A stretch of DNA of 64,000 bases from Antedon mediterranea (taxonomy: Eukaryota; Animalia; Echinodermata): assembly GCF_964355755.1 (NCBI RefSeq), contig NC_092670.1, positions 34,336,388 through 34,400,387 on the forward strand. The letters run 5' to 3'. The first letter of the stretch is position 1. Every line of letters starts with the position of its first letter. This document shows positions 16,215 through 53,624 of this stretch, one piece after another. Under the pieces are notes generated by a model. The model had not been told where the DNA came from and searched no databases. It saw only the letters and a list, made by a program, of their open reading frames with translations. The position numbers and the translations under genes were made by a program.

Positions 16215-16762
16215 GTTTTTGTTGATTAAAATTTCAAAACATTGAAAAATTTTGGAGTAAATTCTATTTAGCCGTTATTGCGTTCATCGATTTAAAGACA
16301 TGTATAACAGATTTCTACACAACCAAGGTTGTACAATATCCACGGCAGTCGTTTAATCAACAACATTGATGCAGGCATAACGAACAAATTGTCAATTATA
16401 CTTTCATAATTAGCTTTTAAAATATATGTAATAAATTTTCTTTAAAAAAAAGTAACTGAAATATATAAAATAATTTAAAATAAAGTATATTTGAAAGCAA
16501 ATTGTTATGAAGTTATGTTTGTTTAAGTTTATTTATAAAATGTGTGAGTTTTTTTATTTCGTCGGCAACAAATTATCATATGGCTATATAACCGACGAGG
16601 TGGGGAATCGAAAAAGGACAGCGTGACTTGATTCGAGGATATAAAAACTTCTGGCATTTTCTTTCGAGTTTGCCATTCCCAGCCTTCACAATTTCACTAT
16701 AAACGAAGGTTAGGGAGTGCTGCACACTTGGTTACAAGGTTTTGATACCTAAACGTTAAAAG
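16215..16762. promoter_or_regulatory. Probable bidirectional promoter for FBXO16 and Staufen, including Staufen untranslated exon 1
   Basis: FBXO16 ATG at 16214 (-). A more GC/CpG-rich + strand segment from ~16590 ends in a consensus donor AG|GTGAGT at 16762/16763. The next convincing acceptor (TTTGTAG, 35306) precedes the Staufen ATG. CTAG/TAGGCC-rich tracts flank both sides. Confidence 0.55.
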
Positions 16763-17351
16763 GTGAGTTTTTAAAATTGAAAAAATGAGATTGAAACAAA
16801 AGGCTTGACCCGGCCATCCTTCTTCTGATCCTCTCCTCCACCCTACCGTTCATTTAGTATAGCCGGTATTCGCATAGCCTACCATTCTTCTATATCTAGC
16901 CTAGCTAGGCCTAGGTAAAACTATCCATCAATTTAGACTAAATAACAAATCTTGTATACTCCATCCTTCGATGTGTAACATGATGTAGGTAGCCTAGGCC
17001 CTAGTCATTTGTTTATAACTTAGCGCCGTGAAGTTGGTTACTTATTCCTTATTCGACATTCGTCAATGGAAGTTGGTTCCTTATTCGACGTTCGACATTC
17101 GCTAGGCTAGGCCAAAATTTCGAAAATGATAATTTCCCAGCGGTAAATATGCCGTGCGCCACCAACCAATCTCCTGCTGTTACTTATTCCCTATTCGACA
17201 TTCATTCGTGAAGTTGGTTCCTTATTCGACGTTCGCTAGGCCGCGGCCGACCGGCTGGCCCAAATTCGTACCAAAGTAGACCTAGTGTAGATGTACCTAT
17301 TTTATCACAGATTTACATTTTTTAGTTCCGATATTACGACCATACCAACGC

Positions 17352-20300
17352 CTCGGGCCGGGTTCACAATAGTATAGATTGACGTAGTATGGTCCTGGAA
17401 TTCCAGAAATGTGCCACTTGCCCCGACCCAGATGATCGGGCAAGTACGGATTTTAAAGCAATTTAAAATGCGTATTTTTAGCATTAATTTAGTAAACACC
17501 ACTTTTAAAGTGGCCATATGACCACACACCGACGCCTCGCGTCGGGTACACAATAGTATAGATTGACGTAGTATGGTCCTGGCATTCCAGAAATGTGCCA
17601 CCTGCCCCAGCCCAGTGCGGGCAAGTACGTGTTTTAAAGCAATTTCAAATGCGTATTTTAGCAATAATTTACTAAGAATTAATAGCACCACTTTTAAAGT
17701 GGCCATATGACCACACCCCGACGCCTCGGGCCGAGTACACAATAGTATAGATTGACGTAGTGTGGTCCTGACTTTCCAGAAATGTGCCACTTGCCCCGGC
17801 CCAGTGCGGGCAAGTACGGGTTTTAAAGCAATTTAAAATGCGTATTTTTAGTGTTATTTTACTAAGTATTAATAGCACCACTTTTAAAGTGGCAATATGA
17901 CCACACCCCGACGCCTCGGGCCGGGTACACAATAGTATAGATTGACTTAGTATGGTCCTGGCTTTCCAGAAATGTGCCACTTGCCCCGGCCCAGTGCGGG
18001 CAAGTAAATGTTTAAAAGCAATTTCAAATGCGTATTTTTAGCATTAATTTACTAAGAATTAATAGCACCACATTTAAAGTGGCCATATGACCACACCCCG
18101 ACGCCTCGGGCCGGGAACACAATAGTATAGATTGACGTAGTATGGTCCTAGCATTCCAGAAATATGCCACTTGCCCCGGCCCAGTGCGGGCAAGTACGGA
18201 TTTTAAAGCAATTTAAAATGCGTATTTTTAGAATTAATTTAGTAAACACCACTTTTAAAGTGGCCATATGACCACACCCCGACGCCTCGGGCCGGGTACA
18301 CAATAGTATAGATTGACGTAGTGTGGTCCTGACTTTCCAGAAATGTGCCACTTGCCCCGGCCCAGTGCGGGCAAGTACGTGTTTAAAAGCAATTTCAAAT
18401 GCGTATTTTTAGCATTAATTTAGTAAACACCACTTTTAAAGTGGCCATATGACCACACCCCGACGCCTCGGGCCGGGTACACAATAGTATAGATTGACTT
18501 AGTATGGTCCTGGCTTTCCAGAAATGTGCCACTTGCCCCGGCCCAGTGCGGGCAAGTACGTGTTTAAAAGCAATTTCAAATGCGTATTTTTAGCATTAAT
18601 TTACTAAGAATTAATAGCACCACATTTAAAGTGGCCATATGACCACACCCCGACGCCTCGGGCCGGGAACACAATAGTATAGATTAACGTAGTATGGTCC
18701 TGGCATTCCAGAAATATGCCACTTGCCCCGGCCCAGTGCGGGCAAGTACGGATTTTAAAGCAATTTAAAATGCGTATTTTTAGCATTAATTTAGTAAACA
18801 CCACTTTTAAAGTGGCCATATGACCACACCCCGACGCCTCGGGCCGGGTACACAATAGTATGGATTGACGTAGAATGGTCCGGACATTCCAGAAATGTGC
18901 CACTTGCCCCGGCCCAGTGCGGGCAAGTACGTGTTTTAAAGCAATTTAAAATGTGTATTTTTAGTCTTATTTTACTAAGTATTAATAGCACCACTTTTAA
19001 AGTGGCCATATGACCACACCCCGACGCCTCGGGGCGGGTACACAATAATATAGATTGACGTAATTTGGTCCTGGCATTCCAGAAATGTGCCACTTGCCCA
19101 GGCCCAGTGCGGGCAAGTATGGGTTTTAAAGCAATTTAAAATGCGTATTTTTAGTGTTATTTTACTAAGTATTAAAAGCACCACTTTTAAAGTGGCAATA
19201 TGACCACACACCGACGCCTCGGGTCGGGTTCACGATAGTATAGATTGACGTAGTATGGTCCTGGCATTCAAGAAATGTACCACTTGCCCCGGCCCAGTGC
19301 GGGCAAGTACGTGTTTTAAAGCAATTTAAAATGCGTATTTTTAGCATTAATTTAGTAAACACCACTTTCAAAGTGGCCATATGACCGCACCCCAACGCCT
19401 CAGGTCGGGTACACAATAGTATAGATTGACGTAGTATGGTCCTGGCATTCCAGAAATGTACCACTTGCCCCGGCCCAGTGCGGGCAAGTACGTGTTTAAA
19501 AGCAATTTCAAATGTGTATTTTTAGCATTAATTTACTAAGAATTAATAGCACCACTTTTAAAGTGGCCATATGATCACACCCCAACGCCTCGGGCCGGGA
19601 ACACAATAGTATAGATTGACGTAGAATGGTCCTGGCATTCCAGAAATGTGCCACTTGCCCCGGCCCAGTGCGGGCAAGTACGGATTTTAAAGCAATTTAA
19701 AATGCGTATTTTTAGCATTAATTTAGTAAACACCATTTTTAAGTGGCCATATGACCACACCCCGACGCCTCGGGTCGGGTTCACAATAGTATAGATTGAT
19801 GTAGAATGGTCCTGGCATTCCATAAATGTGCCACTTGCCCCGGCCCAGTGCGGGCAAGTACGTGTTTAAAAGCAATTTCAAATGCGTATTTTTAGCATTA
19901 ATTTACTAAGAATTAATAGCACCACATTTAAAGTGGCCATATGACCACACCCCGACGCCTCGGGCCGGGAACACAATAGTATAGATTAACGTAGTATTGT
20001 CCTGGCATTCCAGAAATATGCCACTTGCCCCGGCCCAGTGCGGACAAGTACGGATTTTAAAGCAATTTAAAATGCGTATTTTTAGCATTAATTTAGTAAA
20101 CACCACTTTTAAAGTGGCCATATGACCACACCCCGACGCCTCGGGCCGGGTACACAATAGTATAGATTGACGTAGTATGGTCCTGGCTTTCCAGAAATGT
20201 GCCACTTGCCCCGGCCCAGTGCGGGCAAGTACGGATTTTAAAGCAATTTAAAATGCGTGTTTTTAGTGTTATTTTACTAAGTATTAATAGCACCAATTTT

Positions 20301-23300
20301 AAAGTGGCAATATGACCACACCCCGACGCCTCGGGCCGGGTACACAATAGTATGGATTGACGTAGAATGGTCCGGACATTTCAGAAATGTGCCACTTGCC
20401 CCGGCCCAGTGCAGGCAAGTACGTGTTTTAAAGCAATTTAAAATGCGTATTTTTAGTGTTATTTTACTAAATATTAATAGCACCACATTTAAAGTGGCCA
20501 TATGACCACACCCCGACGCCTCGGGCCGGGTACACAATAATATAGATTGACGTAGTATGGTCCTGGCATTCCAGAAATGTGCCACTTGCCCCGGCCCAGT
20601 GCGGGCAAGTACGGGTTTTAAAGCAATTTAAAATGCGTATTTTTAGCATTAATTTAGTAAACACCACTTTTAAAGTGGCCATATGACCACACCCCAACGC
20701 CTCAGGTCGGGTACACAATAGTATAGATTGACGTAGTATGGTCCTGGCATTCCAGAAATGTACCACTTGCCCCGGCCCAGTGCGGGCAAGTACGTGTTTA
20801 AAAGCAATTTCAAATGTGTATTTTTAGCATTAATTTACTAAGAATTAATAGCACCACTTTTAAAGTGGCCATATGACCACACCCCGACGCTTCGGGTCGG
20901 GTTCATAATAGTATAGATTGATGTAGAATGGTCCTGGCATTCCATAAATGTGCCACTTGCCCCGGCCCAGTACGGGCAAGTAAGTGTTTAAAAGCAATTT
21001 CAAATGCGTATTTTTAGCATTTATTTACTAAGAATTAATAGCACCACATTTAAAGTGGCCATATGACCACACCCCGACGCCTCGGGCCGGGAACACAATA
21101 GTATAGATTGACGTAGTATGGTCCTGGCATTCCAGAAATATGCCACTTGCCCCGGCCCAGTGCGAGCAAGGACGGATTTTAAAGCAATTTAAAATGCGTA
21201 TTTTTAGCATTAATTTAGGAAACACCACTTATAAAGTGGCCATATGACCACACCCCGACGCCTCGGGCCGGGTACACAATAGTATAGATTGACTTAGTAT
21301 GGTCTTGGCTTTCCAGAAATGTGCCACTTGCCCCGGCCCAGTGCGGGCAAGTACGTGTTTAAAAGCAATTTCAAATGCGTATTTTTAGCATTAATTTACT
21401 AAGAATTAATAGCACCACATTTAAAGTGGCCATATGACCAAACCCCGACGCCTCGGGCCGGGAACACAATAGTATAGATTAACGTAGTATGGTCCTGGCA
21501 TTCCAGAAATATGCCGCTTGCCCCGGCCCAGTGCGGGCAAGTACGGATTTTAAAGCAATTTAAAATGCGTATTTTTAGCATTAATTTAGTAAACACGACT
21601 TTTAAAGTGGCCATATGACCACACCCCGACGCCTCGGGCCGGGTACACAATAGTATAGATTGACGTAGTATGGTCCTGGCTTTCCAGAAATGTGCCACTT
21701 GCCCCGGCCCAGTGCGGGCAAGTACGGATTTTAAAGCAATTTAAAATGCGTGTTTTTAGTGTTATTTTACTAAGTATTAATAGCACCAATTTTAAAGTGG
21801 CAATATGACCACACCCCGACGCCTCGGGCCGGGTACACAATAGTATGGATTGACGTAGAATGGTCCGGACATTTCAGAAATGTGCCACTTGCCCCGGCCC
21901 AGTGCGGGCAAGTACGTGTTTTAAAGCAATTTAAAATGCGTATTTTTAGTGTTATTTTACTAAATATTAATAGCACCACATTTAAAGTGGCCATATGACC
22001 ACACCCCGACGCCTCGGGCCGGGTACACAATAATATAGATTGACGTAGTATGGTCCTGGCATTCCAGAAATGTGCCACTTGCCCCGGCCCAGTGCGGGCA
22101 AGTACGGGTTTTAAAGCAATTTAAAATGCGTATTTTTAGTGTTATTTTACTAAGTATTAATAGCACCACTTTTAAAGTGGCAATATGACCACACCCCGAC
22201 GCCTCGGGCCGGGTACACAATAGTATAGATTGACGTAGTATGGTCCTGGCATTCCAGAAATGTGCCACTTGCCCCGGCCCAGTGCGGGCAAGTACGGGTT
22301 TTAAAGCAATTTAAAATGCGTATTTTTAGCATTAATTTAGTAAACACCACTTTTAAAGTGGCCATATGACCACACCCCAACGCCTCAGGTCGGGTACACA
22401 ATAGTATAGATTGACGTAGTATGGTCCTGGCATTCAAGAAATGTACCACTTGCCCCGGCCCAGTGCGGGCAAGTACGTGTTTTAAAGCAATTTAAAATGC
22501 GTATTTTTAGCATTAATTTAGTAAACACCACTTTTAAAGTGGCCATATGACCACACCCCAACGCCTCAGGTCGGGTACACAATAGTATAGATTGACGTAG
22601 TATGGTCCTGGCATTCCAGAAATGTACCACTTGCCCCGGCCCAGTGCGGGCAAGTACGTGTTTAAAAGCAATTTCAAATGTGTATTTTTAGCATTAATTT
22701 ACTAAGAATTAATAGCACCACTTTTAAAGTGGCCATATGACCACACCCCGACGCTTCGGGTCGGGTTCATAATAGTATAGATTGATGTAGAATGGTCCTG
22801 GCATTCCATAAATGTGCCACTTGCCCCGGCCCAGTACGGGCAAGTAAGTGTTTAAAAGCAATTTCAAATGCGTATTTTTAGCATTAATTTACTAAGAATT
22901 AATAGCACCACATTTAAAGTGGCCATATGACCACACCCCGACGCCTCGGGCCGGGAACACAATAGTATAGATTAACGTAGTATGGTCCTGGCATTCCAGA
23001 AATATGCCACTTGCCCCGGCCCAGTGCGGGCAAGTACGGATTTTAAAGCAATTTAAAATGCGTATTTTTAGCATTAATTTAGTAAACACGACTTTTAAAG
23101 TGGCCATATGACCAAACCCCGACGCCTCGGGCCGGGTACACAATAGTATAGATTGACGTAGTATGGCCCTGGCTTTCCAGAAATGTGCCACTTGCCCCGG
23201 CCCAGTGCGGGCAAGTGCGGATTTTAAAGCAATTTAAAATGCGTGTTTTTAGTGTTATTTTACTAAGTATTAATAGCACCAATTTTAAAGTGGCAATATG

Positions 23301-26300
23301 ACCACACCCCGACGCCTCGGGCCGGGTACACAATAGTATGGATTGACGTAGAATGGTCCGGACATTTCAGAAATGTGCCACTTGCCCCGGCCCAGTGCGG
23401 GCAAGTACGTGTTTTAAAGCAATTTAAAATGCGTATTTTTAGTGTTATTTTACTAAATATTAATAGCACCACATTTAAAGTGGCCATACGACCACACCCC
23501 GACGCCTCGGGCCGGGAACACAATAGTATAGATTAACGTAGTATGGTCCTGGCATTCCAGAAATATGCCACTTGCCCCGGCCCAGTGCGGGCAAGTACGG
23601 ATTTTAAAGCAATTTAAAATGCGTATTTTTAGCATTAATTTAGTAAACACGACTTTTAAAGTGGCCATATGACCACACCCCGACGCCTCGGGCCGGGTAC
23701 ACAATAGTATAGATTGACGTAGTATGATCCTGGCTTTCCAGAAATGTGCCACTTGCCCCGGCCCAGTGCGGGCAAGTGCGGATTTTAAAGCAATTTAAAA
23801 TGCGTGTTTTTAGTGTTATTTTACTAAGTATTAATAGCACCAATTTTAAAGTGGCAATATGACCACACCCCGACGCCTCGGGCCGGGTACACAATAGTAT
23901 GGATTGACGTAGAATGGTCCGGACATTTCAGAAATGTGCCACTTGCCCCGGCCCAGTGCGGGCAAGTACGTGTTTTAAAGCATTTTAAAATGCGTATTTT
24001 TAGTGTTATTTTACTAAATATTAATAGCACCACATTTAAAGTGGCCATATGACCACACCCCGACGCCTCGGGCCGGGTACACAATAATATAGATTGACGT
24101 AGTATGGTTCTGGCATTCCAGAAATGTGCCACTTGCCCCGGCCCAGTGCGGGCAAGTACGGGTTTTAAAGCAATTTAAAATGCGTATTTTTAGTGTTATT
24201 TTACTAAGTATTAATAGCACCACTTTTAAAGTGGCAATATGACCACACCCCGACGCCTCGGGCCGGGTACACAATAGTATAGATTGACGTAGTATGGTCC
24301 TGGCTTTCCAGAAATGTGCCACTTGCCCCGGCCCAGTGCGTGCAAGTACGTGTTTTAAAGCAATTTCAAATGCGTATTTTTAGCAAAAATTTACTAAGAA
24401 TTAATAGCACCACTTTTAAAGTGGCCATATGACCACACCCCGACGCCTCGGGTCGGGTTCACAATAGTATAGATTGATGTAGAATGGTCCTGGCATTCCA
24501 TAAATGTGCCACTTGCCCCGGCCCAGTACGGGCAAGTAAGTGTTTAAAAGCAATTTCAAATGCGTATTTTTAGCATTAATTTACTAAGAATTAATAGCAC
24601 CACATTTAAAGTGGCCATATGACCACACCCCGACGCCTCGGGCCGGGAACACAATAGTATAGATTGACGTAGTATGGTCCTGGCATTTCAGAAATGTGCC
24701 ACTTGCCCCGGCCCAGTGCGGGCAAGTACGGATTTTAAAGCAATTTAAAATGCGTATTTTTAGCATTAATTTAGTAAACATGACTTTTAAAGTGGCCATA
24801 TGACCACACCCCGACGCCTCGGGCCGGGTACACAATAGTATAGATTGACGTAGTATGGTCCTGGCTTTCCAGAAATGTGCCACTTGCCCCGGCCCAGTGC
24901 GGGCAAGTACGGATTTTAAAGCAATTTAAAATGCGTGTTTTTAGTGTTATTTTACTAAGTATTAATAGCACCAATTTTAAAGTGGCAATATGACCACACC
25001 CCGACGCCTCGGGCCGGGTACACAATAGTATGGATTGACGTAGAATGGTCCGGACATTTCAGAAATGTGCCACTTGCCCCGGCCCAGTGCGGGCAAGTAC
25101 GTGTTTTAAAGCAATTTAAAATGCGTATTTTTAGTGTTATTTTACTAAATATTAATAGCACCACATTTAAAGTGGCCATATGACCACACCCCGACGCCTC
25201 GGGCCGGGTACACAATAATATAGATTGACGTAGTATGGTCCTGGCATTCCAGAAATGTGCCACTTGCCCCGGCCCAGTGCGGGCAAGTACGGGTTTTAAA
25301 GCAATTTAAAATGCGTATTTTTAGTGTTATTTTACTAAGTATTAATAGCACCACTTTTAAAGTGGCAATATGACCACACCCCGACGCCTCGGGCCGGGTA
25401 CACAATAGTATAGATTGACGTAGTATGGTCCTGGCATTCCAGAAATGTGCCACTTGCCCCGGCCCAGTGCGGGCAAGTACGGGTTTTAAAGCAATTTAAA
25501 ATGCGTATTTTTAGCATTAATTTAGTAAACACCACTTTTAAAGTGGCCATATGACCACACCCCAACGCCTCAGGTCGGGTACACAATAGTATAGATTGAC
25601 GTAGTATGGTCCTGGCATTCAAGAAATGTACCACTTGCCCCGGCCCAGTGCGGGCAAGTACGTGTTTTAAAGCAATTTAAAATGCGTATTTTTAGCATTA
25701 ATTTAGTAAACACCACTTTTAAAGTGGCCATATGACCACACCCCAACGCCTCAGGTCGGGTACACAATAGTATAGATTGACGTAGTATGGTCCTGGCATT
25801 CCAGAAATGTACCACTTGCCCCGGCCCAGTGCGGGCAAGTACGTGTTTAAAAGCAATTTCAAATGTGTATTTTTAGCATTAATTTACTAAGAATTAATAG
25901 CACCACTTTTAAAGTGGCCATATGACCACACCCCGACGCTTCGGGTCGGGTTCATAATAGTATAGATTGATGTAGAATGGTCCTGGCATTCCATAAATGT
26001 GCCACTTGCCCCGGCCCAGTACGGGCAAGTAAGTGTTTAAAAGCAATTTCAAATGCGTATTTTTAGCATTAATTTACTAAGAATTAATAGCACCACATTT
26101 AAAGTGGCCATATGACCACACCCCGACACCTCGGGCCGGGAACACAATAGTATAGATTGACGTAGTATGGTCCTGGCATTCCAGAAATATGCCACTTGCC
26201 CCGGCCCAGTGCGAGCAAGTACGGATTTTAAAGCAATTTAAAATGCGTATTTTTAGCATTAATTTAGTAAACATCACTTTTAAAGTGGCCATATGACCAC

Positions 26301-29300
26301 ACCCCGACGCCTCGGGCCGGGTACACAATAGTATAGATTGACTTAGTATGGTCCTGGCTTTCCAGAAATGTGCCACTTGCCCCGGCCCAGTGCGGGCAAG
26401 TACGTGTTTAAAAGCAATTTCAAATGCGTATTTTTAGCATTAAATTTACTAAGAATTAATAGCACCACATTTAAAGTGGCCATATGACCACACCCCGACG
26501 CCTCGGGCCGGGAACACAATAGTATAGATTAACGTAGTATGGTCCTGGCATTCCAGAAATATGCCACTTGCCCCGGCCCAGTGCGGGCAAGTACGGATTT
26601 TAAAGCAATTTAAAATGCGTATTTTTAGCATTAATTTAGTAAACACGACTTTTAAAGTGGCCATATGACCACACCCCGACGCCTCGGGCCGGGTACACAA
26701 TAGTATAGATTGACGTAGTATGGTCCCGGCTTTCCAGAAATGTGCCACTTGCCCCGGCCCAGTGCGGGCAAGTACGGATTTTAAAGCAATTTAAAATGCG
26801 TGTTTTTAGTGTTATTTTACTAAGTATTAATAGCACCAATTTTAAAGTGGCAATATGACCACACCCCGACGCCTCGGGCCGGGTACACAATAGTATGGAT
26901 TGACGTAGAATGGTCCGGACATTTCAGAAATGTGCCACTTGCCCCGGCCCAGTGCGGGCAAGTACGTGTTTTAAAGCAATTTAAAATGCGTATTTTTAGT
27001 GTTATTTTACTAAATATTAATAGCACCACATTTAAAGTGGCCATATGACCACACCCCGACGCCTCGGGCCGGGAACACAATAGTATAGATTAACGTAGTA
27101 TGGTCCTGGCATTCCAGAAATATGCCACTTGCCCCGGCCCAGTGCGGGCAAGTACGGATTTTAAAGCAATTTAAAATGCGTATTTTTAGCATTAATTTAG
27201 TAAACACGACTTTTAAAGTGGCCATATGACCACACCCCGACGCCTCGGGCCGGGTACACAATAGTATAGATTGACGTAGTATGGTCCTGGCTTTCCAGAA
27301 ATGTGCCACTTGCCCCGGCCCAGTGCGGGCAAGTGCGGATTTTAAAGCAATTTAAAATGCGTGTTTTTAGTGTTATTTTACTAAGTATTAATAGCACCAA
27401 TTTTAAAGTGGCAATATGACCACACCCCGACGCCTCGGGCCGGGTACACAATAGTATGGATTGACGTAGAATGGTCCGGAAATTTCAGAAATGTGCCACT
27501 TGCCCCGGCCCAGTGCGGGCAAGTACGTGTTTTAAAGCAATTTAAAATGCGTATTTTTAGTGTTATTTTACTAAATATTAATAGCACCACATTTAAAGTG
27601 GCCATATGACCACACCCCGACGCCTCAGGCCGGGTACACAATAATATAGATTGACGTAGTATGGTCCTGGCATTCCAGAAATGTGCCACTTGCCCCGGCC
27701 CAGTGCGGGCAAGTACGGGTTTTAAAGCAATTTAAAATGCGTATTTTTAGTGTTATTTTACTAAGTATTAATAGCACCACTTTTAAAGTGGCAATATGAC
27801 CACACCCCGACGCCTCGGGCCGGGTACACAATAGTATAGATTGACGTAGTATGGTCCTGGCTTTCCAGAAATGTGCCACTTGCCCCGGCCCAGTGCGTGC
27901 AAGTACGTGTTTTAAGCAATTTTTTAATGCGTATTTTTAGCAAAAATTTACTAAGAATTAATAGCACCACTTTTAAAGTGGCCATATGACCACACCCCGA
28001 CGCCTCGGGTCGGGTTCACAATAGTATAGATTGATGTAGAATGGTCCTGGCATTCCATAAATGTGCCACTTGCCCCGGCCCAGTACGGGCAAGTAAGTGT
28101 TTAAAAGCAATTTCAAATGCGTATTTTTAGCATTAATTTACTAAGAATTAATAGCACCACATTTAAAGTGGCCATATGACCACACCCCGACGCCTCGGGC
28201 CGGGAACACAATAGTATAGATTGACGTAGTATGGTCCTGGCATTCCAGAAATATGCCACTTGCCCCGGCCCAGTGCGAGCAAGTACGGATTTTAAAGGAA
28301 TTTAAAATGCGTATTTTTAGCATTAATTTAGTAAACACCACTTTTAAAGTGGCCATATGACCACACCCCGACGCCTCGGGCCGGGTACACAATAGTATAG
28401 ATTGACGTAGTATGGTCCTGGCTTTCCAGAAATGTGCCACTTGCCCCGGCCCAGTGCGGGCAAGTACGTGTTTAAAAGCAATTTCAAATGCGTATTTTTA
28501 GCATTAATTTACTAAGAATTAATAGCACCACATTTAAAGTGGCCATATGACCACACCCCGACGCCTCGGGCCGGGAACACAATAGTATAGATTGACGTAG
28601 TATGGTCCTGGCATTCCAGAAATATGCCACTTGCCCCGGCCCAGTGCGGGCAAGTACGGATTTTAAAGCAATTTAAAATGCGTATTTTTAGCATTAATTT
28701 AGTAAACACCACTTTTAAAGTGGCCATATGACCACACCCCGACGCCTCGGGCCGGGTACACAATAGTATAGATTGACGTCGTATGGTCCTGGCTTTCCAG
28801 AAATGTGCCACTTGGCCCGGCCCAGTGCGGGCAAGTACGGATTTTAAAGCAATATAAAATGCGTATTTTTAGTGTTATTTTACTAAGTATTAATAGCACC
28901 ACTTTTAAAGTGGCAATATGACCACACCCCGACGCCTCGGGCCGGGTTCACAATAGTATGGATTGACGTAGAAAGGTCCAGACTTTCTAGAAATGTGCCA
29001 CTTGCCTCGGCCCAGTGCGGGCAAGTACGGATTTTAAAGCAATTTAAAATGCGTATTTTTAGTGTTATTTTACTAAGTATTAATAGCACCACTTTTAAAG
29101 TGCAATATGACCACACCCCGACGCCTCGGGCCGGGTTCACAATAGTATGGATTGACGTAGAAAGGTCCAGACTTTCTAGAAATGTGCCACTTGCCCCGGC
29201 CCAGTGCGGGCAAGTACGTGTTTTAAAGCAATTTAAAATGTGTATTTTTAGTCTTATTTTACTAAGTATTAATAGCACCACTTTTAAAGTGGCCATATGA

Positions 29301-32300
29301 CCACACCCCGACGCCTCGGGCCAGGTACACAATAATATAGATTGACGTAATTTGGTCCTGGCATTCCAGAAATGTGCCACTTGCCCCGGCCCAGTGCGGG
29401 CAAGTACGGGTTTTAAAGCAATTTAAAATGCGTATTTTTAGTGTTATTTTACTAAGTATTAAAAGCACCACTTTTAAAGTGGCAATATGACCACACACCG
29501 ACGCCTCGGGTCGGGTTCACGATAGTATAGATTGACGTAGTATGGTCCTGGCATTCAAGAAATGTACCACTTGCCCCGGCCCAGTGCGGGCAAGTACGTG
29601 TTTTAAAGCAATTTAAAATGCGTATTTTTAGCATTAATTTAGTAAACACCACTTTTAAAGTGGCCATATGACCACACCCCAACGCCTCAGGTCGGGTACA
29701 CAATAGTATAGATTGACGTAGTATGGTCCTGGCATTCCAGAAATGTACCACTTGCCCCGGCCCAGTGCGGGCAAGTACGGATTTTAAAGCAATTTAAAAT
29801 GCGTATTTTTAGCATTAATTTAGTAAACACCACTTTTAAAGTGGCCATATGACCACACCCCGACGCCTCGGGCCGGGTACACAATAGTATAGATTGACGT
29901 CGTATGGTCCTGGCTTTCCAGAAATGTGCCACTTGGCCCGGCCCAGTGCGGGCAAGTACGGATTTTAAAGCAATATAAAATGCGTATTTTTAGTGTTATT
30001 TTACTAAGTATTAATAGCACCACTTTTAAAGTGGCAATATGACCACACCCCGACGCCTCGGGCCGGGTTCACAATAGTATGGATTGACGTAGAAAGGTCC
30101 AGACTTTCTAGAAATGTGCCACTTGCCCCGGCCCAGTGCGGGCAAGTACGTGTTTTAAAGCAATTTAAAATGTGTATTTTTAGTCTTATTTTACTAAGTA
30201 TTAATAGCACCACTTTTATAGTGGCCATATGACCACACCCCGACGCCTCGGGCCGGGTACACAATAGTATAGATTGACGTCGTATGGTCCTGGCTTTCCA
30301 GAAATGTGCCACTTGCCTCGGCCCAGTGCGGGCAAGTACGGATTTTAAAGCAATTTAAAATGCGTATTTTTAGTGTTATTTTACTAAGTATTAATAGCAC
30401 CACTTTTAAAGTGCAATATGACCACACCCCGACGCCTCGGGCCGGGTTCACAATAGTATGGATTGACGTAGAAAGGTCCAGACTTTCTAGAAATGTGCCA
30501 CTTGCCCCGGCCCAGTGCGGGCAAGTACGTGTTTTAAAGCAATTTAAAATGTGTATTTTTAGTCTTATTTTACTAAGTATTAATAGCACCACTTTTAAAG
30601 TGGCCATATGACCACACCCCGACGCCTCGGGCCGGGTACACAATAATATAGATTGACGTAATTTGGTCCTGGCATTCCAGAAATGTGCCACTTGCCCCGG
30701 CCCAGTGCGGGCAAGTACGGGTTTTAAAGCAATTTAAAATGCGTATTTTTAGTGTTATTTTACTAAGTATTAAAAGCACCACTTTTAAAGTGGCAATATG
30801 ACCACACACCGACGCCTCGGGTCGGGTTCACGATAGTATAGATTGACGTAGTATGGTCCTGGCATTCAAGAAATGTACCACTTGCCCCGGCCCAGTGCGG
30901 GCAAGTACGTGTTTTAAAGCAATTTAAAATGCGTATTTTTAGCATTAATTTAGTAAACACCACTTTCAAAGTGGCCATATGACCACACCCCAACGCCTCA
31001 GGTCGGGTACACAATAGTATAGATTGACGTAGTATGGTCCTGGCATTCCAGAAATGTACCACTTGCCCCGGCCCAGTGCGGGCAAGTACGTGTTTAAAAG
31101 CAATTTCAAATGTGTATTTTTAGCATTAATTTACTAAGAATTAATAGCACCACTTTTAAAGTGGCCATATGATCACACCCCAACGCCTCGGGCCGGGAAC
31201 ACAATAGTATAGATTGACGTAGTATGGTCCTGGCATTCCAGAAATATGCCACTTGCCCCGGCCCAGTGCGGGCAAGTACGGATTTTAAAGCAATTTAAAA
31301 TGCGTATTTTTAGCATTAATTTAGTAAACACCACTTTTAAAGTGGCCATATGACCACACCCCGACGCCTCGGGCCGGGTACACAATAGTATAGATTGACG
31401 TCGTATGGTCCTGGCTTTCCAGAAATGTGCCACTTGGCCCGGCCCAGTGCGGGCAAGTACGGATTTTAAAGCAATATAAAATGCGTATTTTTAGTGTTAT
31501 TTTACTAAGTATTAATAGCACCACTTTTAAAGTGGCAATATGACCACACCCCGACGCCTCGGGCCGGGTTCACAATAGTATGGATTGACGTAGAAAGGTC
31601 CAGACTTTCTAGAAATGTGCCACTTGCCCCGGCCCAGTGCGGGCAAGTACGTGTTTTAAAGCAATTTAAAATGTGTATTTTTAGTCTTATTTTACTAAGT
31701 ATTAATAGCACCACTTTTAAAGTGGCCATATGACCACACCCCGACGCCTCGGGCCGGGTACACAATAGTATAGATTGACGTCGTATGGTCCTGGCTTTCC
31801 AGAAATGTGCCACTTGCCCCGGCCCAGTGCGGGCAAGTACGGGTTTTAAAGCAATTTAAAATGCGTATTTTTAGTGTTATTTTACTAAGTATTAAAAGCA
31901 CCACTTTTAAAGTGGCAATATGACCACACACCGACGCCTCGGGTCGGGTTAGGGATAGTATAGATTGACGTAGTATGGTCCTGGCATTCAAGAAATGTAC
32001 CACTTGCTCCGGCCCAGTGCGGGCAAGTACGTGTTTTAAAGCAATTTAAAATGCGTATTTTTAGCATTAATTTAGTAAACACCACTTTTAAAGTGGCCAT
32101 ATGACCACACCCCAACGCCTCAGGTCGGGTACACAATAGTATAGATTGACGTAGTATGGTCCTGGCATTCCAGAAATGTACCACTTGCCCCGGCCCAGTG
32201 CGGGCAAGTACGTGTTTAAAAGCAATTTCAAATGTGTATTTTTAGCATTAATTTACTAAGAATTAATAGCACCACATTTAAAGTGGCCATATGACCACAC

Positions 32301-33119
32301 CCCGACGCCTCGGGCCGGGTACACAATAGTATAGATTGACGTAGTATGGTCCTGGCTTTCCAGAAATGTGCCACTTGCCCCGGCCCAGTGCGGGCAAGTA
32401 CGGATTTTAAAGCAATTTAAAATGCGTATTTTTAGCATTAATTTAGTAAACACCACTTTTAAAGTGGCCATATGACCACACCCCGACGCCTCAGGTCGGG
32501 TTCACAATAGTATAGATTGATGTAGAATGGTCCTGGCATTCCATAAATGTTCCACTTGCCCCGGCCCAGTGCGGGCAAGTACGTGTTTAAAAGCAATTTC
32601 AAATGCGTATTTTTAGCATTAATTTACTAAGAATTAATAGCACCACATTTAAAGTGGCCATATGACCACACCCCGACGCCTCGGGCCGGGAACACAATAG
32701 TATAGATTGACGTAGTATGGTCCTGGCATTCCAGAAATATGCCACTTGACCCGGCCCAGTGCGGGCAAGTACGGATTTTAAAGCAATTTAAAATGCGTAT
32801 TTTTAGCATTAATTTAGTAAACACCACTTTTAAAGTGGCCATATGACCACACCCCGACGCCTCGGGCCGGGTACACAATAGTATAGATTGACGTCGTATG
32901 GTCCTGGCTTTCCAGAAATGTGCCACTTGCCCCGGCCCAGTGCGGGCAAGTACGGATTTTAAAGCAATTTAAAATGCGTATTTTTTGTGTTATTTTACTA
33001 AGTATTAATAGCACCACTTTTAAAGTGGCAATATGACCACACCCCGACGCCTCGGGCCGGGTTCACAATAGTATGGATTGACGTAGAAAGGTCCAGACTT
33101 TCTAGAAATGTGCCACTTG
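17352..33119 (+). repeat. Tandem satellite array, left arm: about 85 monomers of 181 or 190 bp
   Basis: Monomer GACCACACCCCGACGCCTCGGGCCGGGTACACAATAGTATAGATTGACGTAGTATGGTCCTGGCATTCCAGAAATGTGCCACTTGCCCCGGCCCAGTGCGGGCAAGTAC... The length variants differ by 9 bp (TTTAGTAAACACC versus TTTACTAAGWATTAATAGCACC). ORF-track offsets of 181 and 190 confirm the period. Confidence 0.97.
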
Positions 33120-34735
33120 GTCATATGGCCACTTTAAAAGTGGTGTTTACTAAATTAATGCTAAAAATACGCATTTTAAATTGCTTTAAAACACGTACTT
33201 GCCCGCACTGGGCCGGGGCAAGTGGCACATTTCTGGAATGTCAGGACCATTCTACGTCAATCCATACTATTGTGAACCCGGCCGCCCGAGGCGTCGGGGT
33301 GTGGTCATATGGCCACTTTAAAAGTGGTGTTTACTAAATTAATGCTAAAAATACGCATTTTAAATTGCTTTAAAACACGTACTTGCCCGCACTGAGCCGA
33401 GGCAAGTGGAACATTTCTGGAATGCCAGGACCATTCTACGTCAATCTATACTATCGTGAACCCGGCCCGAGGCGTCGGGGTGTGGTCATATTGCCACTTT
33501 GAAAGTGGTGCTATTAATACTTAGAAAAAAAAAACTAAATATACGCATTTTAAATTGCTTTAAAACACGTACTTGCCCGCACTTGGCCGGGGCAAGTAGC
33601 ACATTTATGGAATGCCAGGACCATACTACGTCAATCTATACTATTGTGTACCCGGCCCGAGGCGTCGGGGTGTGGTCATATGGCCACTTTAAAAGTGGTG
33701 TTTACTAAATTAATGCTAAAAATTCGCATTTTAAATTGCTTTAAAATCCGTACTTGCCCGCACTGGGCCGGGGCAAGTGGCATATTTCTGGAATGCCAGG
33801 ACCATACTACGTCAATCTATACTATTGTGTTCCCGGCCCGAGGCGTCGGGGTGTGGTCATATGGCCACTTTAAAAGTGGTGTTTACTAAATTAATGCTAA
33901 AAATACGCATTTTAAATTGCTTTAAAACACGTACTTGCCCGCACTGGTCCGGGGCAAGTGGCACATTTCTGGAATGTCAGGACCATTCTACGTCAATCCA
34001 TACTATTGTGAACCCGGCCCGAGGCGTCGGGGTGTGGTCATATTGCAACTTTAAAAGTAGTGCTGTTAATACTTAGTAAAAAAACACTAAATATACGCAT
34101 TTTAAATGGCTTTAAAACACGTACTTGCCCGAACTGGGCCGGGGCAATTGGCACATTTCTGGAATGCCAGGACAATACTACGTCAATCTATACTATTGTG
34201 TACCCGGCCCGAGGCGTCGGGGTGTGGTCATATGGCCACTTTAAAAGTGGTGTTTACTAAATTAATGCTAAAAATACGCATTTTAAATTGCTTTAAAACA
34301 CGTACTTGCCCGCACTGGGCCGGGGCAAGTGGCATATTTCTGGAATGCCAGGACCATTCTACGTCAATCTATACTATCGTGAACCCGGCCCGAGGCGTCG
34401 GGGTGTGGTCATATGGCCACTTTAAAAGTGGTGCTATTAATTCTTAGGAAATTATTGGTAAAAATACTCTTTGAAATTGCTTTAAAACACGTACTTGCCC
34501 GCACTGCTGGGCCGTGGCAGGTGGCACATTTATGGTATGTCAGGACCATTCTACATCAATCTATACTATTGTGAACCCGGCCCGAGGCGTCGGGGTGTGG
34601 TCATATTTCCACTTTAAAAGTGGTGCTATTAATACTTAGTAAAAAACACTAAAAATACGCATTTTAAATTGCTTTAAAATCCGTACTTGCCCGCACTGGG
34701 CCGGGGCAAGTGGCACATTTCTGGAATGCCAGGAA
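33118..34735 (-). repeat. Same satellite inverted, right arm: about 9 monomers
   Basis: From 33118 the sequence is the reverse complement of the monomer (GGTCATATGGCCACTTTAAAAGTGGTG...), and the repeat-derived ORFs switch from the - to the + strand here. Confidence 0.95.
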
Positions 34736-35320
34736 GCGTTGGTATGGTCGTAATATCGGAACTAAAAAATTGTAAATCTGTGATAAAATAGGTACATCTA
34801 CACTAGGTCTACTTTGGTACGAATTTGGGCCAGCCGGTCGGCCGCGGCCTAGCGAACGTCGAATAAGGAACCAACTTCACGAATGAATGTCGAATAGGGA
34901 ATAAGTGAATAAGTAACAGCAGGAGATTGGTTGGTGGCGCACGGCATATTTACCGCTGGGAAATTATCATTTTCGAAATTTTGGCCTAGCCTAGCGAATG
35001 TCGAACGTCGAATAAGGAACCAACTTCCATTGACGAATGTCGAATAAGGAATAAGTAACCAACTTCACGGCGCTTTATAACTTAATAATATTATTAATGA
35101 TAATATTGATGGTTTTTTTTTTATTAATTTTTAATTTTATGCACATTTAATTTATGTATTTTTTGTTAAAATGACAGTTTTTCTCTGTAATATGGTTCAT
35201 TCAGTGTTGTATGTTATTGCGTTTTTAAGCATCCGGAAACCAAATGTCATGTTTGCCTATGCTTGTGTTCATGACAATAAAGAATTTATCTTAATTTTAT
35301 TTGTAGTGAATAGAGAAATA

Positions 35321-38300
35321 ATGTCTCAATTCCTTGGAACCAAGCAGACAAGCCAGGCAATACACCATGTTAATAACAGCATAATGTTGTCCAATCATAC
35401 AACACCTGCTACTGTTAACACAGTGTTGCCAGGACAGGCAACACCAGACAACAACAGTTCAGTGTTGCAAGGTCCGACCGAGATGGCTGCGGCAGCCACT
35501 CGGCCTGCTGCGAGTCCAACAAGTTTGAGCACCAACCTCACAGAAGCAAGCAAAGATGTTGTTGTTAGTTTCTTTTATTTAAAAAATTCCAAATTAGGCT
35601 TCAAACAATTTAAAGTGCTTTTTACATTATATAAATACTGGATTTAAGAATATTTGTTATTTTGCACAGTTGAATTGCAATAGAATCTATGTTTTTTTTT
35701 ACATGGACTCTCGCATTGTTTTAAATTAGTTTTCATGCTTTTTTTATAGGTTCCAACTGAGATGGGTCCTCAGATGGCAAACCCCAAAGAGAAGACGCCT
35801 ATGTGCCTTCTAAACGAACTAGCCCGCTTTAACCGGCTTCAACCAAAGTACGAACTAACAGACCAAACAGGACCTCCACACTTAAAAGTCTTCAGAGTAC
35901 AACTATGTCTTGGTGATAAGAAATATGAAGCCACTGGTTCAAGTATTAAAAAAGCTCAGCACGAAGCAGCCAAACAAGCTTTGATGGAATCAACTCTTCC
36001 GAAACCATTGCCCAGACCGCCTTCCTCGCGCCCTCACAAGTTCAATCCAAACCCGGATGCGTTGACTGCCACCGTGTTACTGAATGGATACAGCATGAAG
36101 AAAGGTGTACCCATTAATTATTCAACTGTGCCATCCACGCAAATCGATGGCGGTGGCGGTGTTCAATCACATGTCTATCCATATACACCTTCGCATCATC
36201 AGCAGCAGGTGTACTATTCCAGCTATCGTCATCCACATCCACGCGGTGTATACAGGTACGGCAGAATTTTATTGATTTATTTGACCAATACTTAATAACA
36301 GAACAAATAAAAACAAAAGGTCAAGGAAAAAAAGTGACAAAGGTAACTATATAAGCAGGGTTTTTGTTAGCGATTATTGAAGACCATTTGGTTCCCACCG
36401 TATAAGAAAGTCTCTACCCTAGGCCCAGTTTTAACACAGCACCTACCTAAGAAACTTCTAAATACCTGACAAAATTGTTTTTTCCACCCCACTTTTTACT
36501 TTGTGAGATCAAAACCCAATTCTCTTATTACATCCCTAGCTGCTTAAATGACAAATTATCTTTTTGTGTTTTTGTGGTAAATGTATAATTTTTATTCATA
36601 AATTATATCAGTTTCTATGAAATTATTTAAAATAAAATTTTCAGGCATCCTCCACGCACATTTAGCGTTGTTTTAAACATAGCCAGTAAAGAATATACTG
36701 GAGAGGGCCGAAACATGAAAGAAGCCAAACAGAATGCTGCTACCAAGGCCTTGCATGACCTTAAAGAAGCTGGAGAAGATGTCACAACTCTTACTAAAGA
36801 CCAGGTAATTGATATGAATTCTGGGCCCATTGTCATGGCTGTTACAGTGGCGTGGGGAAACTAAGAGTGTAGGCAGCAACAACCTCTTCCTAAAGCTCTG
36901 TCTACACCATCAAACTGTATGTGACAAATAAATGTTATATGGCAATAATGGACATGATGACGTCATAACACTACCATATTTGGGCTTTACGTACATACGT
37001 CCAGTTTTGGAATGTGCGTGTCCCTTGTGGCATAGCTCATTAACCAATATCCAATGTTTTAGAATTTAAAAGGTACAGAAGAGAGCTCTAAGATGTATTT
37101 ACGGTGCTAATTACATCAGTTATGAAAATGTTTTATCCATGTCTGGATTATGTTCCCTTGAAGCCAGAAGAGATAACCTGATGATGAAGTTTGGGAATGG
37201 GCTACTACTCTCTAAACTGTTTTTATGAATAAATACCTACATATATATCACTACCATATTTGGGCATATCACACTAGTTTGATAGTGTAGACAGCTTAAC
37301 AGGCTTTTACATGAAAGGACAACATCTAGCCAAGTAGCACTCCAACTTACCTAATGTTGTTTATCATGTTTTATAGGCTACAAGCACGGCATCCTGTGAT
37401 GTGCAGACTGAAACAGCTGTTGGTAAGACTATGTCAACTTAGTAAAACAATGTAGATAAATAGTGAGGAGCCTAGTACAAAAGAATTTTAACGTACCACA
37501 AATGGCGAAACTTGTTATTACCATTGTAGTAGTTAAGGAGCAGACACAGTGTATTTGAAACAAATTGTGGGAGCCACTCAATTAATTTCACCTCAAACTA
37601 TATAACATGTCCACATACTGCTGAATTTATTGATTGTGGCCACAGCATGTAAAGTCACATAAATGAATAGCTGTATATACTGAGCATCTGACCAATTATG
37701 GTATTAATTATAAATTCCAATCACTCAACCTGTAGCCAAGGAGTTTGTAGGGTTCGAAAAAAAATCCCTTTTGCTTTAATTAAGTGCCATTTTCAAACTA
37801 GAGACGAGCAGTGAAAGTTTTAGTAAATAGGCCTAACTTATGACAATGTTATGGCCAATTCTACCTAGCCAGCCGGCAAATTATATCCATCTACTAGGTG
37901 TAGGCCTAAATATCTTTCCCCTTTTTGTGTAAAAACGGGCTACAGGCTTGTTACTGTGATAAATTTTTATCCTTTTTAGAATTAATGTTACTTTTGGTGT
38001 TTTTTTTTTTTAGCTTCATGTGAAGTAGCTGAACCAGGGAAGTCTGAGATCAGTCTAGTCTATGAACTTGCTCACCCACATAATCTCAATGTACAGTTTG
38101 AAGTAAGTTATCATTGTTGACATATTTAAACATTTATTGGAATAGCCACCCTAGGGGGTTTATTGTTCGAAAGGGTTTTAGGATGGGAATTGGCTCACAG
38201 TAATTGAAAGCTCTTGGTTTGACAATAAGAGTTCATTCAGACTTTACAATTTACACATGTAAAGGTCACGTGTGGTGTAAATTTTAAGATAAATCAGCTG

Positions 38301-41300: not shown

Positions 41301-42519
41301 TCCCAAAATCCAAATTGCACTAGAAAAAAAAATCTTCATAATGGTAAATCTTGCATATTTAGTATTATGCTTGTTTGTTTTTGTTAACCTTTATTCAATT
41401 GATTATTTCGTTGTTATTTGTATACAGCAGGACGATCCCATGGGCTTGTACCAGGACTGCTTCCAATGTTACCTGGAATGACCTCGCCAGGATTTGCAGG
41501 TATACGCTTATAGTACAGTAGTAATCAAACTTTATGTGACAACAAAATGTGATGTGCCCTTATATGGACACGATGATGTCATATCACTACCATATTTGGG
41601 CAAATTTTTTCACATAACGTTTGATAGTATAGACATAGTTTTAGAGTGTATACTTAGAGGTTCTCAACAGTGTTGTATTGTAGGCAAGTTTGTAATTTAC
41701 AAAATAATCTTGTGAGCCAGATATAGAGCATTAAACCTTAAGTTCTGTCTACGCTATCAAACTAGTTTCACAAAAAAAGTGTGATTTGCCCAAATTTGGT
41801 AGTAATATGACATCATCATATGGGCACATCACATATTTTTGTCACATAAAGTTTGATAGTGTAGACTAAATTCTTTTTTCCTTGAGTGTCAATATATGCC
41901 AAAAATGTTTTTTAAGATTATATAAAAAAAAACAATTAAACATTTTTTTAGGTATTAACCGTGTACCGCCAGTATCATCCAACAACAAGCAGTCGCAGAC
42001 GACCGCAGTGATCGCACGTGAACTGCTGACAAACGGACACTCTGAGACGGCGGCAGAACTAATCAAAGCTGGTAAATCACATACTATAGGCTTAGATGAA
42101 GACGCAAAGTTGGTGCGCCCTAAAACTCAGCTAGAATATTTAGGTCAACTTCAAGGACTAGGCGTTCACTTTCAAGACTTTCCAAAGGTATTTAAAATTG
42201 TGTTTACTGCAGTACTTGATGCTTTACTGCAGTAACAAAGGTCATATATTTTACCCAAAAATATTTTTTTCAAATTACATAAATATCTTGTTTCTCTCAT
42301 TTTTGTATGAGTTAATTTTTTTTTACTCACTGTTGCTAAACAACATTTTTTATATTGCAGAGCAACAAATCTGAGTTTATGTCACTTGTGTCCGTCACCA
42401 CTAGCCCAAAACTAGTTGCCCACGGATCCGGCCCGACCACTGAGGCATCACACGACGCAGCGTCAATGACTGCCCTGAAGTTGCTTTCTGAAATGGACAA
42501 ACAGCACGAAATGCCATAA
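35321..42519 (+). CDS. stau: Double-stranded RNA-binding protein Staufen (STAU2-like, five dsRBDs)
   Basis: Coding exons 35321-35563, 35750-36255, 36645-36804, 37377-37422, 38014-38102, 38565-38786, 39830-39982, 40408-40563, 40907-40958, 41428(or 41431)-41499, 41952-42187, 42361-42519 (TAA). Motifs: MANPKEKTPMCLLNELARFN (dsRBD1), split dsRBD2 with Pro/Tyr/His-rich insert, KSEISLVYELA...ESGPAHMKKF (dsRBD3), NPISRLVQI (dsRBD4), RKVTF, TAVIARELL (swapping motif) and dsRBD5. Confidence 0.96.
36892..37296. mobile_element. MITE family A copy interrupted by a LINE ORF2 fragment (36986-37248)
   Basis: MITE halves with CACTACCATATTTGGGC duplicated (36969-36985 and 37249-37265) around an insert translating YIRPVLECACPLWHSSLT...*KVQKRALRCIY...SYENVL...SLEARR, a CR1/L2-group post-RT segment. 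Confidence 0.7.
39500..39757. mobile_element. Cluster of MITE family A copies in opposite orientations
   Basis: Inverted partial copy at ~39500-39615, then TTCTACACTATCAAACTTTATGTG...GTTTGATAGTGTAGAGAGAGCT. Confidence 0.65.
41046..41866. mobile_element. Four MITE family A copies (41046-41300 tandem pair, ~41520-41640, ~41740-41866) flanking a small Staufen exon
   Basis: Repeated CTACACTATCA...TGATAGTGTAG termini with an ATGGACAC...CCATATTTGGG core. Confidence 0.7.
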
Positions 42520-52441: not shown

Positions 52442-52525
52442 TATAAGGAACTTTTACGAGAAATTGAAACTATGAAGGAGGGTGCACGGGGTCATTAAAA
52501 AAATGTCTGTCGTTCTTTCTTTTAA

Positions 52526-53113: not shown

Positions 53114-53624
53114 TTAAGTGGTGTTCATCGGTTCTGCAGTCACAGACATTACAGATTCCAAAACTGTATAAAACTGTATTTGATTTTAAAGCTATATGTC
53201 TAAACTTTTTGAGAAAACGTGTGATGTGCCCAAATGACATTATCATGTCCATATAATGGGCACATAACATTTTTTCTCATATAAAGTTTGATAGTGTAGA
53301 CTAGACTTAACTTGTTCTTGTACTTTTTCTTGCATAACCTTTGTTGAAATTGATTTTGAAAAATGAATGAAAGAATGTAGGTTAAGTTCGCAAGGATTCT
53401 TTTATATTTTAATAATATGAATTGTTAAATCTGGTGTAAGATTAATATGAATTTCGATACTACTAAACTCATAAGAGGGCGCTCTTGGTTGTGGTAACAG
53501 TGTGTTTTCATAGTTGGTTAAGTATTAAATTTAAATCTCTAAAAATCACTTTAATCCTTCTAAATTGTAACACTATCTGTAAGAGATATTAATAATTACC
53601 TAATACTAGAGCTATACTTTACTG

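What the first reader, a model, noticed from the sequence alone, without database searches (positions are those of the whole stretch)
17013..35083. 18-kb foldback transposon whose whole interior is a nucleosome-length satellite
Seen: ~330-bp TIRs that are nearly identical, a perfect 9-bp TSD (TTATAACTT), short repeated motifs in the outer TIR (AAGTTGGTTCCTTATTCGAC-like), and ~17.4 kb of 181/190-bp monomers arranged as two opposed arms with no coding sequence. Established: long modular inverted repeats with 9-bp TSDs define Drosophila FB and other MULE-related foldback elements, and some TEs are known to seed satellites. Inference: this is a young non-autonomous element that acts as a mobile satellite cassette, either moving whole arrays or seeding an array that then expanded in place. 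I do not recognise the family.
Basis: partly seen in the sequence, partly recalled or inferred. Interest (0 to 1): 0.88.

Follow-up and report, generated by a model that had tools for sequence, protein, structure and literature searches.

The report
Satellite-filled foldback transposon in Staufen intron
An 18-kb gene-less stretch, 96% made of one 181/190-base repeat laid out as a long and a short opposed array between matching transposon-style ends, sits in the first intron of the Staufen gene of a likely feather star; it is likely a jumping element moved by an enzyme encoded elsewhere, a large example of a design already described in flies and beetles.

Summary
Observation confirmed: a 9-bp target duplication, 330-bp terminal inverted repeats (TIRs) with no substitutions and two indels, and 17.4 kb of 181/190-bp repeats without genes. 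The arms are very unequal (about 85 versus 9 monomers). The element lies in the first, non-coding intron of an intact Staufen gene, likely of an Antedon feather star, about 0.4 kb inside the transcript, back to back with an F-box gene. Contigs of public runs suggest roughly 10-16 copies, show the TIR running straight into the monomer, and show related ends and the same satellite in a sister species whose orthologous site looks empty (inferred, not read through). The long arm grew by recent block duplications of about 13 monomer types; the short arm did not. The centre join (2-bp overlap) was bridged by no listed contig, so it is copy-specific or unverified. No transposase partner could be sought (no genome held). 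It works like Drosophila Tetris and Tribolium Rehavkus satellites (arms over 11 kb are published): a new member of a known kind. The scan noted two similar 19-kb elements in this genome and others in sea urchins.

The parts
17013..17021 (.). left target-site duplication, 9 bp
17022..17351 (+). left TIR, 330 bp, modular: outer 40 bp likely shared with other families; 17022-17172 is also the whole TIR of a short-TIR subfamily; 17173-17240 repeats the outer module; last 4 bp overlap the monomer
17348..33119 (+). long arm, about 85 monomers of 181/190 bp, built from about 13 multiplied monomer types; longest exact internal repeat 1,346 bp
33118..33119 (.). centre junction, 2-bp overlap, cutting a long-arm monomer at base 56 and a short-arm monomer at base 157; bridged by no listed contig
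33118..34739 (-). short arm, 8.7 inverted monomers, not recently multiplied, about 91% alike to the long arm
34736..35074 (-). right TIR, 339 bp, with an 8-bp duplication and a 1-bp insertion
35075..35083 (.). right target-site duplication, 9 bp
16612..16762 (+). host: Staufen non-coding exon 1 (no ATG in this stretch; true start may lie further 5')
   Evidence: (X8 record 25)
16763..35306 (+). host: Staufen intron 1, 18,544 bp with the element, 482 bp without; element 259 bp from the donor and 223 bp from the acceptor
35307..42516 (+). host: Staufen exon 2 (ATG at 35321) and further coding exons, covering all 696 residues of P0001
14260..16214 (-). host: 5' part of a divergently oriented F-box gene (FBXO16-like by recall only), likely ATG at 16214

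Best explanation
This is a real, gene-less, multi-copy element with intact inverted ends and a 9-bp target duplication, likely a non-autonomous foldback DNA transposon of the Mutator/Rehavkus type that was likely cut and pasted into Staufen intron 1 by a transposase encoded elsewhere. Steps: (1) shown: ends, TSD, arrays, intron position, TIR-to-monomer join in many copies; (2) inferred: a transposase binds the short sub-repeats of the outer TIR and makes a 9-bp staggered cut near an open, divergent promoter, as maize Mu does; (3) inferred: the ancestor had two short arms of about 10-15 diverged monomers around a middle part, and the middle plus the inner arm ends were lost by a deletion joined at a 2-bp overlap, as long inverted repeats are prone to (established knowledge, recalled); (4) shown: the long arm was multiplied in blocks of 2-8 monomers very recently while the short arm was not; inferred: by slippage or unequal sister exchange, in this copy or its immediate donor; (5) inferred: the insertion is tolerated because it is intronic and is spliced out.
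For: Ends and TSD. Run X1: left junction in one contig (16968-17049, only 28 letters on the TIR side, under the tool's 31-letter bar), TIR contig 17036-17377 with 0 differences at depth 787 against 24.5 and 40.4 for the flanking contigs, about 19-32 ends, running unbroken into the monomer. Organism B (X5): a contig starts matching at exactly 17022 with another flank; a joint links TIR base 17172 straight to the monomer (a like joint in X1); the orthologous flank contig goes on 655 letters past 16946 without matching the TIR 75 bp away. Block duplication: 67 of 84 long-arm monomers have a neighbour within 2 differences, 0 of 7 short-arm monomers within their own arm; 7-monomer block with 1 difference; longest exact match 1,346 bp long-long, 150 bp short-long. 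The last long-arm monomer is identical over its 56 bases to 5 whole ones, so the centre cut is as young as the amplification. Precedents: PMC4079207, PMC12581902, 9-bp TSD of Rehavkus (PMC6446971), TSS targeting by Mu (PMC7337890).
Against: No listed contig bridges the centre junction in 4 of 4 runs (32 pieces shown, 264 not shown); short-read contigs drop rare joins between high-copy words, so this neither proves nor excludes a misassembled or collapsed centre. TSDs of other copies were not seen. The empty site in organism B is inferred from non-alignment; the 655 letters were not matched to the right flank. No transposase is linked to these ends, and foldback structure has also arisen in the P superfamily (Galileo). 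Contig depth is not a copy number. The spliced RNA contig comes from another sample, which may lack the insertion.
Confidence: 0.75

Rival explanations
1. The ends are real but the interior is misassembled: the true element has longer or more symmetric arms, or a middle with a transposase gene, and the assembler collapsed it or joined two arrays at 33118.
For: No listed bridging contig at the centre. The 61-mer before the junction occurs 6 times in the window but its contig has depth 401, about 10-16 times the flank, and continues as an ordinary monomer. Two other such elements noted in this genome are also 19 kb long (unchecked notes), close to typical long-read lengths (recalled).
Against: The join has a 2-bp overlap only and sits at different monomer phases, unlike an overlap-driven misjoin; the short arm has its own diverged monomers (0 of 7 with a near twin in its own arm, 1 of 7 in the long arm); extra depth is expected from other family members and from a second chromosome copy.
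Confidence: 0.15
2. The satellite is an older, independent satellite DNA that a short-TIR transposon captured; the element is a carrier, and long arrays are moved whole as cassettes.
For: The monomer has no similarity to the TIR or to the rest of the window. In organism B summed monomer depth is 2.6-4.3e5 against a flank of 156, while TIR-like depth is only 110-1,900 and inner TIR 17220-17329 is absent: far more monomers per recognisable end. Capture is the published model for Xenopus miDNA4 (review PMC12628747).
Against: TIR-monomer joins exist in both species, so the link predates their split; in X1 the ratio of summed monomer depth to TIR depth (35-78 per end) is close to this copy's 47 per end, so elements could hold most of the satellite (crude: bins range 3,900-24,600). 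Escape from the element, as for TCsat12, explains organism B equally well. Not exclusive of the best explanation for steps 1, 2 and 5.
Confidence: 0.2
3. Not one element: two one-ended events or two neighbouring elements recombined, leaving the left end of one and the right end of another.
For: The arms are only about 91% alike, with no colinear mirror match, and the two TIR-array junctions differ.
Against: A perfect TSD around both ends and a clean 482-bp remaining intron need a single insertion event at this site; a chimeric donor formed elsewhere and then moved as one unit stays possible and would not change the verdict.
Confidence: 0.05

Closest known systems
Rehavkus-associated satellites of Tribolium: TfSat06 elements, Rehavkus-3_TC/TfSat23, TfSat25-TCsat12 (PMC12581902; passages and section 12 read; supplementary figures S14 and S16 not seen)
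   Same: Inverted termini made of a TIR plus a variable number of satellite monomers; arms sometimes over 11 kb; up to 50 repeats per terminus; species differences in array length; Rehavkus TSD 9 bp, TIR 26-400 bp (PMC6446971 Table 1, passages).
   Different: No sequence link tested; no transposase or PHD finger here; no middle domain; one arm ten times the other; crinoid host; inside the first intron of a conserved gene.
Tetris of Drosophila virilis (PMC4079207; parts 1-3 of 6 of the text read)
   Same: Non-autonomous foldback; outer non-tandem domain then about 220-bp tandem repeats; 8-10-bp TSD; array change by monomer duplication inside a copy; long arrays flanked by two outer domains seen by fibre-FISH; Mutator assignment from TSD only.
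   Different: Complete Tetris copies have TIRs up to 1,735 bp, an inner and a middle domain and are enriched near heterochromatin; this copy is 18 kb, lacks inner and middle domains and is genic.
Muta1 of Aedes aegypti (PMC5225508, passages) and Tm1 of Meloidogyne (PMC3169594, passages)
   Same: MULE foldbacks with 8-9-bp TSDs and composite TIRs holding short 9-15-bp sub-repeats; unequal repeat numbers at the two ends (Tm1).
   Different: Their repeats are 12-15-bp motifs, not 181/190-bp monomers; both have a known transposase-coding member.
Galileo / CDSTR177 of Drosophila koepferae (PMC13553610, passages)
   Same: Foldback element with up to 82 copies of a 177-bp repeat amplified in situ.
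   Different: P superfamily; the repeat comes from the middle region and forms one array, not opposed arms.

Membership tests
Foldback elements (structural class) | long modular TIRs with internal tandem repeats, flanked by a TSD | tested here: met
Foldback elements (structural class) | multiple dispersed copies sharing the ends | tested here: met
   TIR contig depth 787 vs 24.5-40.4; another flank at 17022 in organism B; rough, depth is not a copy count
Foldback elements (structural class) | middle domain between the arms (variable, may be lost) | tested here: not met
   arrays abut with a 2-bp overlap; centre not verified by contigs
Mutator/MULE superfamily | 8-11-bp TSD | tested here: met
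   9 bp at this one copy; other copies' TSDs not seen
Mutator/MULE superfamily | long TIRs, often hundreds of bp | tested here: met
   330 bp
Mutator/MULE superfamily | MULE-type DDE transposase in an autonomous partner with the same ends | not testable with these tools
   no genome held; no coding part in this copy; end pattern absent from metagenome contigs
Mutator/MULE superfamily | insertion bias to gene 5' ends | tested here: inconclusive
   one site, about 0.4 kb inside the Staufen transcript
Rehavkus | 9-bp TSD and subterminal tandem repeats inside inverted termini | tested here: met
   definition
Rehavkus | transposase with PHD finger, in the Rehavkus clade | not testable with these tools
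   no partner sequence available; Repbase not on hand
Nucleosome-positioning satellite | about 10.5-bp AA/TT/TA periodicity and phased nucleosomes | tested here: inconclusive
   weak in the 181-bp type, absent in the 190-bp type; no chromatin data

The most novel reading that the evidence does not exclude
In this feather star, promoter-seeking foldback transposons deliver ready-made 18-19-kb satellite blocks next to the shared promoters of conserved genes, and this one survives in Staufen's first intron because its perfect ends pair in the pre-mRNA and loop the whole array out, bringing donor and acceptor back to about 0.5 kb, while loading Staufen's own transcript with over 1 kb of double-stranded RNA; in the sister species the same repeat has outgrown its carrier as a free satellite.
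Probability: 0.12. Interest if true: 0.62.

Novelty: new member of a known kind. Interest (0 to 1): 0.32.

Why it matters
It is a clean snapshot of a satellite growing inside a mobile element: one arm keeps about 9 old monomers while the other has been multiplied to about 85, and a close sister species shares the repeat with different ends. That makes the transposon-to-satellite route, so far shown mainly in insects, testable in crinoids by a two-genome comparison. It also enlarges a 0.5-kb intron of an important RNA-localisation gene about 38-fold, a natural allele for asking how a large satellite and a long inverted repeat affect splicing and a divergent promoter. None of this is a new kind of system.

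Tried and rejected
Whole-genome search: no genome held, so copies, TSDs and the autonomous partner could not be tabulated. Exact scans of metagenome contigs with a 24-base end pattern and a 27-base monomer pattern: 0 and 0. Look-ups of the scan's own notes by sequence (TIR plus monomers; monomers) and by nearness: nothing, so the two other 19-kb elements noted in this genome are probably other families, unverified. No listed holder is on record as RNA; X8 is RNA by guess and by its spliced contig; its low-depth TIR and monomer contigs cannot tell transcription from DNA carry-over. X8 gave no cover of the F-box first exon: no conclusion. Monomer-like contigs at depth 3-7 in X12 (organism C) and small shares in X9-X11, X13 were not used. 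The 'opposite strands' joints are ordinary head-to-tail neighbours, not the centre. Centre junction: no listed bridge, inconclusive. Heterozygosity: no empty-site loose end among 24 rows shown, 190 hidden, inconclusive. Monomer derived from TIR, tRNA or another Rfam family: no hit. Coding in the array: 113-179-aa stop-free frames recur with the monomer; 0 of 2 tested hit Pfam. Mirror correspondence of arms: only L02 and R01 pair, without strong support (90/71). Absence of AATAAA and of acceptor-like motifs on the sense strand is compatible with tolerance but expected by chance for a short repeated unit. Paper searches for central deletion of palindromes and for stem-assisted splicing of large introns gave no paper that I read; those two points rest on recall. 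Searches for Antedon with transposable elements (7 papers, listing only), sea-urchin foldback TU (only Tetris) and crinoid satellites (none of the 15 listed mentions crinoids) showed no description of this family; Repbase, Dfam and subscription journals were not searched.
Full report
Observation. The structure is as described. The same 9-mer flanks both ends (17013-17021, 35075-35083) and occurs on that strand nowhere else in the window; its chance under local composition is 2.3e-5. The TIRs (17022-17351, 34736-35074) have no substitution and two indels on the right, 8 bp and 1 bp. Between them lie two opposed arrays, 84.4 and 8.7 copies, 15,772 and 1,622 bp, 96% of the 18,053-bp element. Of 91 whole monomers, 53 are 190 bp, 30 are 181 bp and 8 are other lengths. 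The monomer resembles neither the TIR nor anything else in the window; Rfam gave nothing over 15500-18500, and 0 of 2 array ORFs tested hit Pfam.

Setting. Downstream exons encode Staufen (dsrm and Staufen_C), 99% identical over the tested exon to a protein named for Antedon mediterranea and 80% to Anneissia japonica, with all 696 residues found in order; the host is therefore likely an Antedon feather star. A contig of run X8 leaves the window at the donor 16762 and continues at 35307, 14 bases before the start codon. The element thus sits in a 5' non-coding intron that would be 482 bp without it, 259 bp from the donor and 223 bp from the acceptor. An F-box gene starts at about 16214 on the other strand (the name FBXO16 is my recall). 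X8 is another sample and may lack the insertion, so splicing across the 18.5-kb intron is not shown.

Other copies. No genome is held, so I used public runs: 13 were listed, 4 holding half the words or more, all of one sample that may be the window's source. I laid 4 runs on the left flank, TIR and one monomer. In X1 the flank contigs have depth 24.5 and 40.4, and one contig equal to the left TIR (0 differences, 17036-17377) has depth 787 and runs unbroken into the monomer: roughly 19-32 ends, 10-16 elements, with the caveat that depth is no copy number. So the left-type TIR-monomer join is the family norm and the right end of this copy, with its indels and 40-bp shorter join, is likely the derived one. 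Depth over the outer 40 bp is about three times higher, and contigs in three runs leave the TIR at 17061 into unrelated sequence, which likely marks other families with the same tip. In organism B (flank 20 substitutions and 12 gap letters in 847 bp) a contig begins matching at exactly 17022 behind a different flank, a joint links TIR base 17172 directly to the monomer (a like joint exists in X1), the inner TIR is absent, and the monomer is abundant. B's orthologous flank contig continues 655 letters past 16946 without matching the TIR that starts 75 bp on, so the site is likely empty there; I did not match those letters to the right flank.

How the array grew. Monomers differ by 7.4% within the long arm, 8.5% within the short arm and 8.3% between arms, but the long arm is made of repeated blocks: 13 multi-copy classes hold 70-79 of 84 monomers, and 67 of 84 have a near twin within 2 differences, against 0 of 7 within the short arm and 1 of 7 across arms. 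A 7-monomer block recurs with 1 difference; the longest exact repeats are 1,346 bp within the long arm, 150 bp between arms and 116 bp within the short arm. The tree of all 91 monomers intermingles outer, middle and inner long-arm monomers and puts short-arm monomers on longer private branches in 4 places. This fits two ancestral arms of about 10-15 diverged monomers, one of which was then multiplied. One copy cannot tell whether that happened here or in the donor.

The centre. The arrays meet with a 2-bp overlap, cutting one monomer at base 56 and the other at base 157. The cut long-arm monomer is identical to five whole ones, so the cut is no older than the amplification. Against my reading: laid on 33058-33180, none of 4 runs showed a listed contig bridging the join (32 pieces shown, 264 hidden), and the exact pre-junction contig (depth 401) continues as an ordinary monomer. 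The join is therefore not the family norm; it is either private to this copy, which short-read contig cleaning would tend to remove, or an assembly join.

Predicted folding. The TIR pair gives a duplex of -634 kcal/mol against -119 for 20 shuffles; 32600-33700 folds at -804 with 428 of 460 pairs across the centre and a loop of about 100 bases, against -348 for an equal stretch inside the long arm. These follow from the inverted structure and are not evidence of function. A 10.5-bp AA/TT/TA periodicity is weak in the 181-bp type and absent in the 190-bp type; nucleosomal length is common among satellites (PMC8122249, start of abstract only).

Mechanism. Most likely a non-autonomous Mutator-type foldback element, moved in trans, that landed near an open divergent promoter as maize Mu does (PMC7337890, passages), lost its middle by a deletion and had one arm multiplied. 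The superfamily rests on the 9-bp TSD and long sub-repeated TIRs (PMC6446971, PMC5225508, PMC3169594, passages), not on a transposase; Galileo shows that foldback form also arises in the P superfamily (PMC13553610, passages).

Comparison and novelty. Tetris has the same layout and long arrays between two outer domains (PMC4079207, parts 1-3 of 6). Tribolium Rehavkus-like elements carry satellite arms of over 11 kb, up to 50 repeats per end, and one repeat escaped into 80-kb arrays in the sister species (PMC12581902, passages and section 12; supplementary figures not seen, and they may show copies as unequal or as middle-less as this one). It works like these; membership of Rehavkus or MULE is not established because the transposase test could not be run. 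I found no description of this family; repeat databases were not available. The scan's unchecked notes list two 19-kb elements of this design in the same genome, both next to gene starts, and others in sea urchins; they gave me the promoter-targeting lead but I did not test them.

Verdict. Real feature, new member of a known kind, interest 0.32. The extras are the ten-fold arm asymmetry with a readable growth history, the shared satellite with different ends in a sister species, and the position in Staufen intron 1.

Noticed in passing
window:17022-17061: The outer 40 bp has about three times the depth of the inner TIR, and contigs in X1, X5 and X8 diverge exactly after 17061: likely other families, perhaps the autonomous partner, sharing the tip.
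   Followed up: partly
window:17022-17172: Short-TIR subfamily: joints link 17172 directly to the monomer in both species (to 17402 in X1, 17441 in X5); the 330-bp TIR looks like this module plus a partial repeat of it plus about 110 new bases.
   Followed up: partly
window:45801-49960: A 504-aa kinase-domain frame on + with short internal repeats, inside or beside a truncated non-LTR reverse-transcriptase frame (534 aa, - strand, RVT_1 and zf-RVT); a further kinase-like piece follows at 49709-49960, so the LINE may interrupt a kinase gene.
   Followed up: no
window:10174-10780, 13813-14286, 52521-53117: Three copies (84-92% alike) of a 0.5-0.6-kb dispersed repeat, two in introns of the F-box gene.
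   Followed up: no
window:3636-3702, 11147-11624, 36891-36985, 39619-39763, 41046-41868, 53202-53311: A dozen copies of a 120-140-bp partly palindromic MITE-like repeat, many in Staufen introns, in both orientations and one tandem pair of period 121.
   Followed up: no
window:53627-53862 and 54677-54925: A 1.3-kb element-like unit with about 200-bp inverted ends (83% alike).
   Followed up: no
window:15926-16090, 16890-17003: CTAG-rich low-complexity tracts at the start of intron 1 of both divergent genes; a GCTAGG motif also recurs in the TIR.
   Followed up: no
window:16517: All three covering runs (X1, X5, X8) read T where the window has G: an allele or an assembly error.
   Followed up: no
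window:17013-35083: This and the two similar elements noted in this genome measure 18.1, 19.1 and 19.5 kb: a size optimum, a limit of assembly, or selection by the scan's window size.
   Followed up: no
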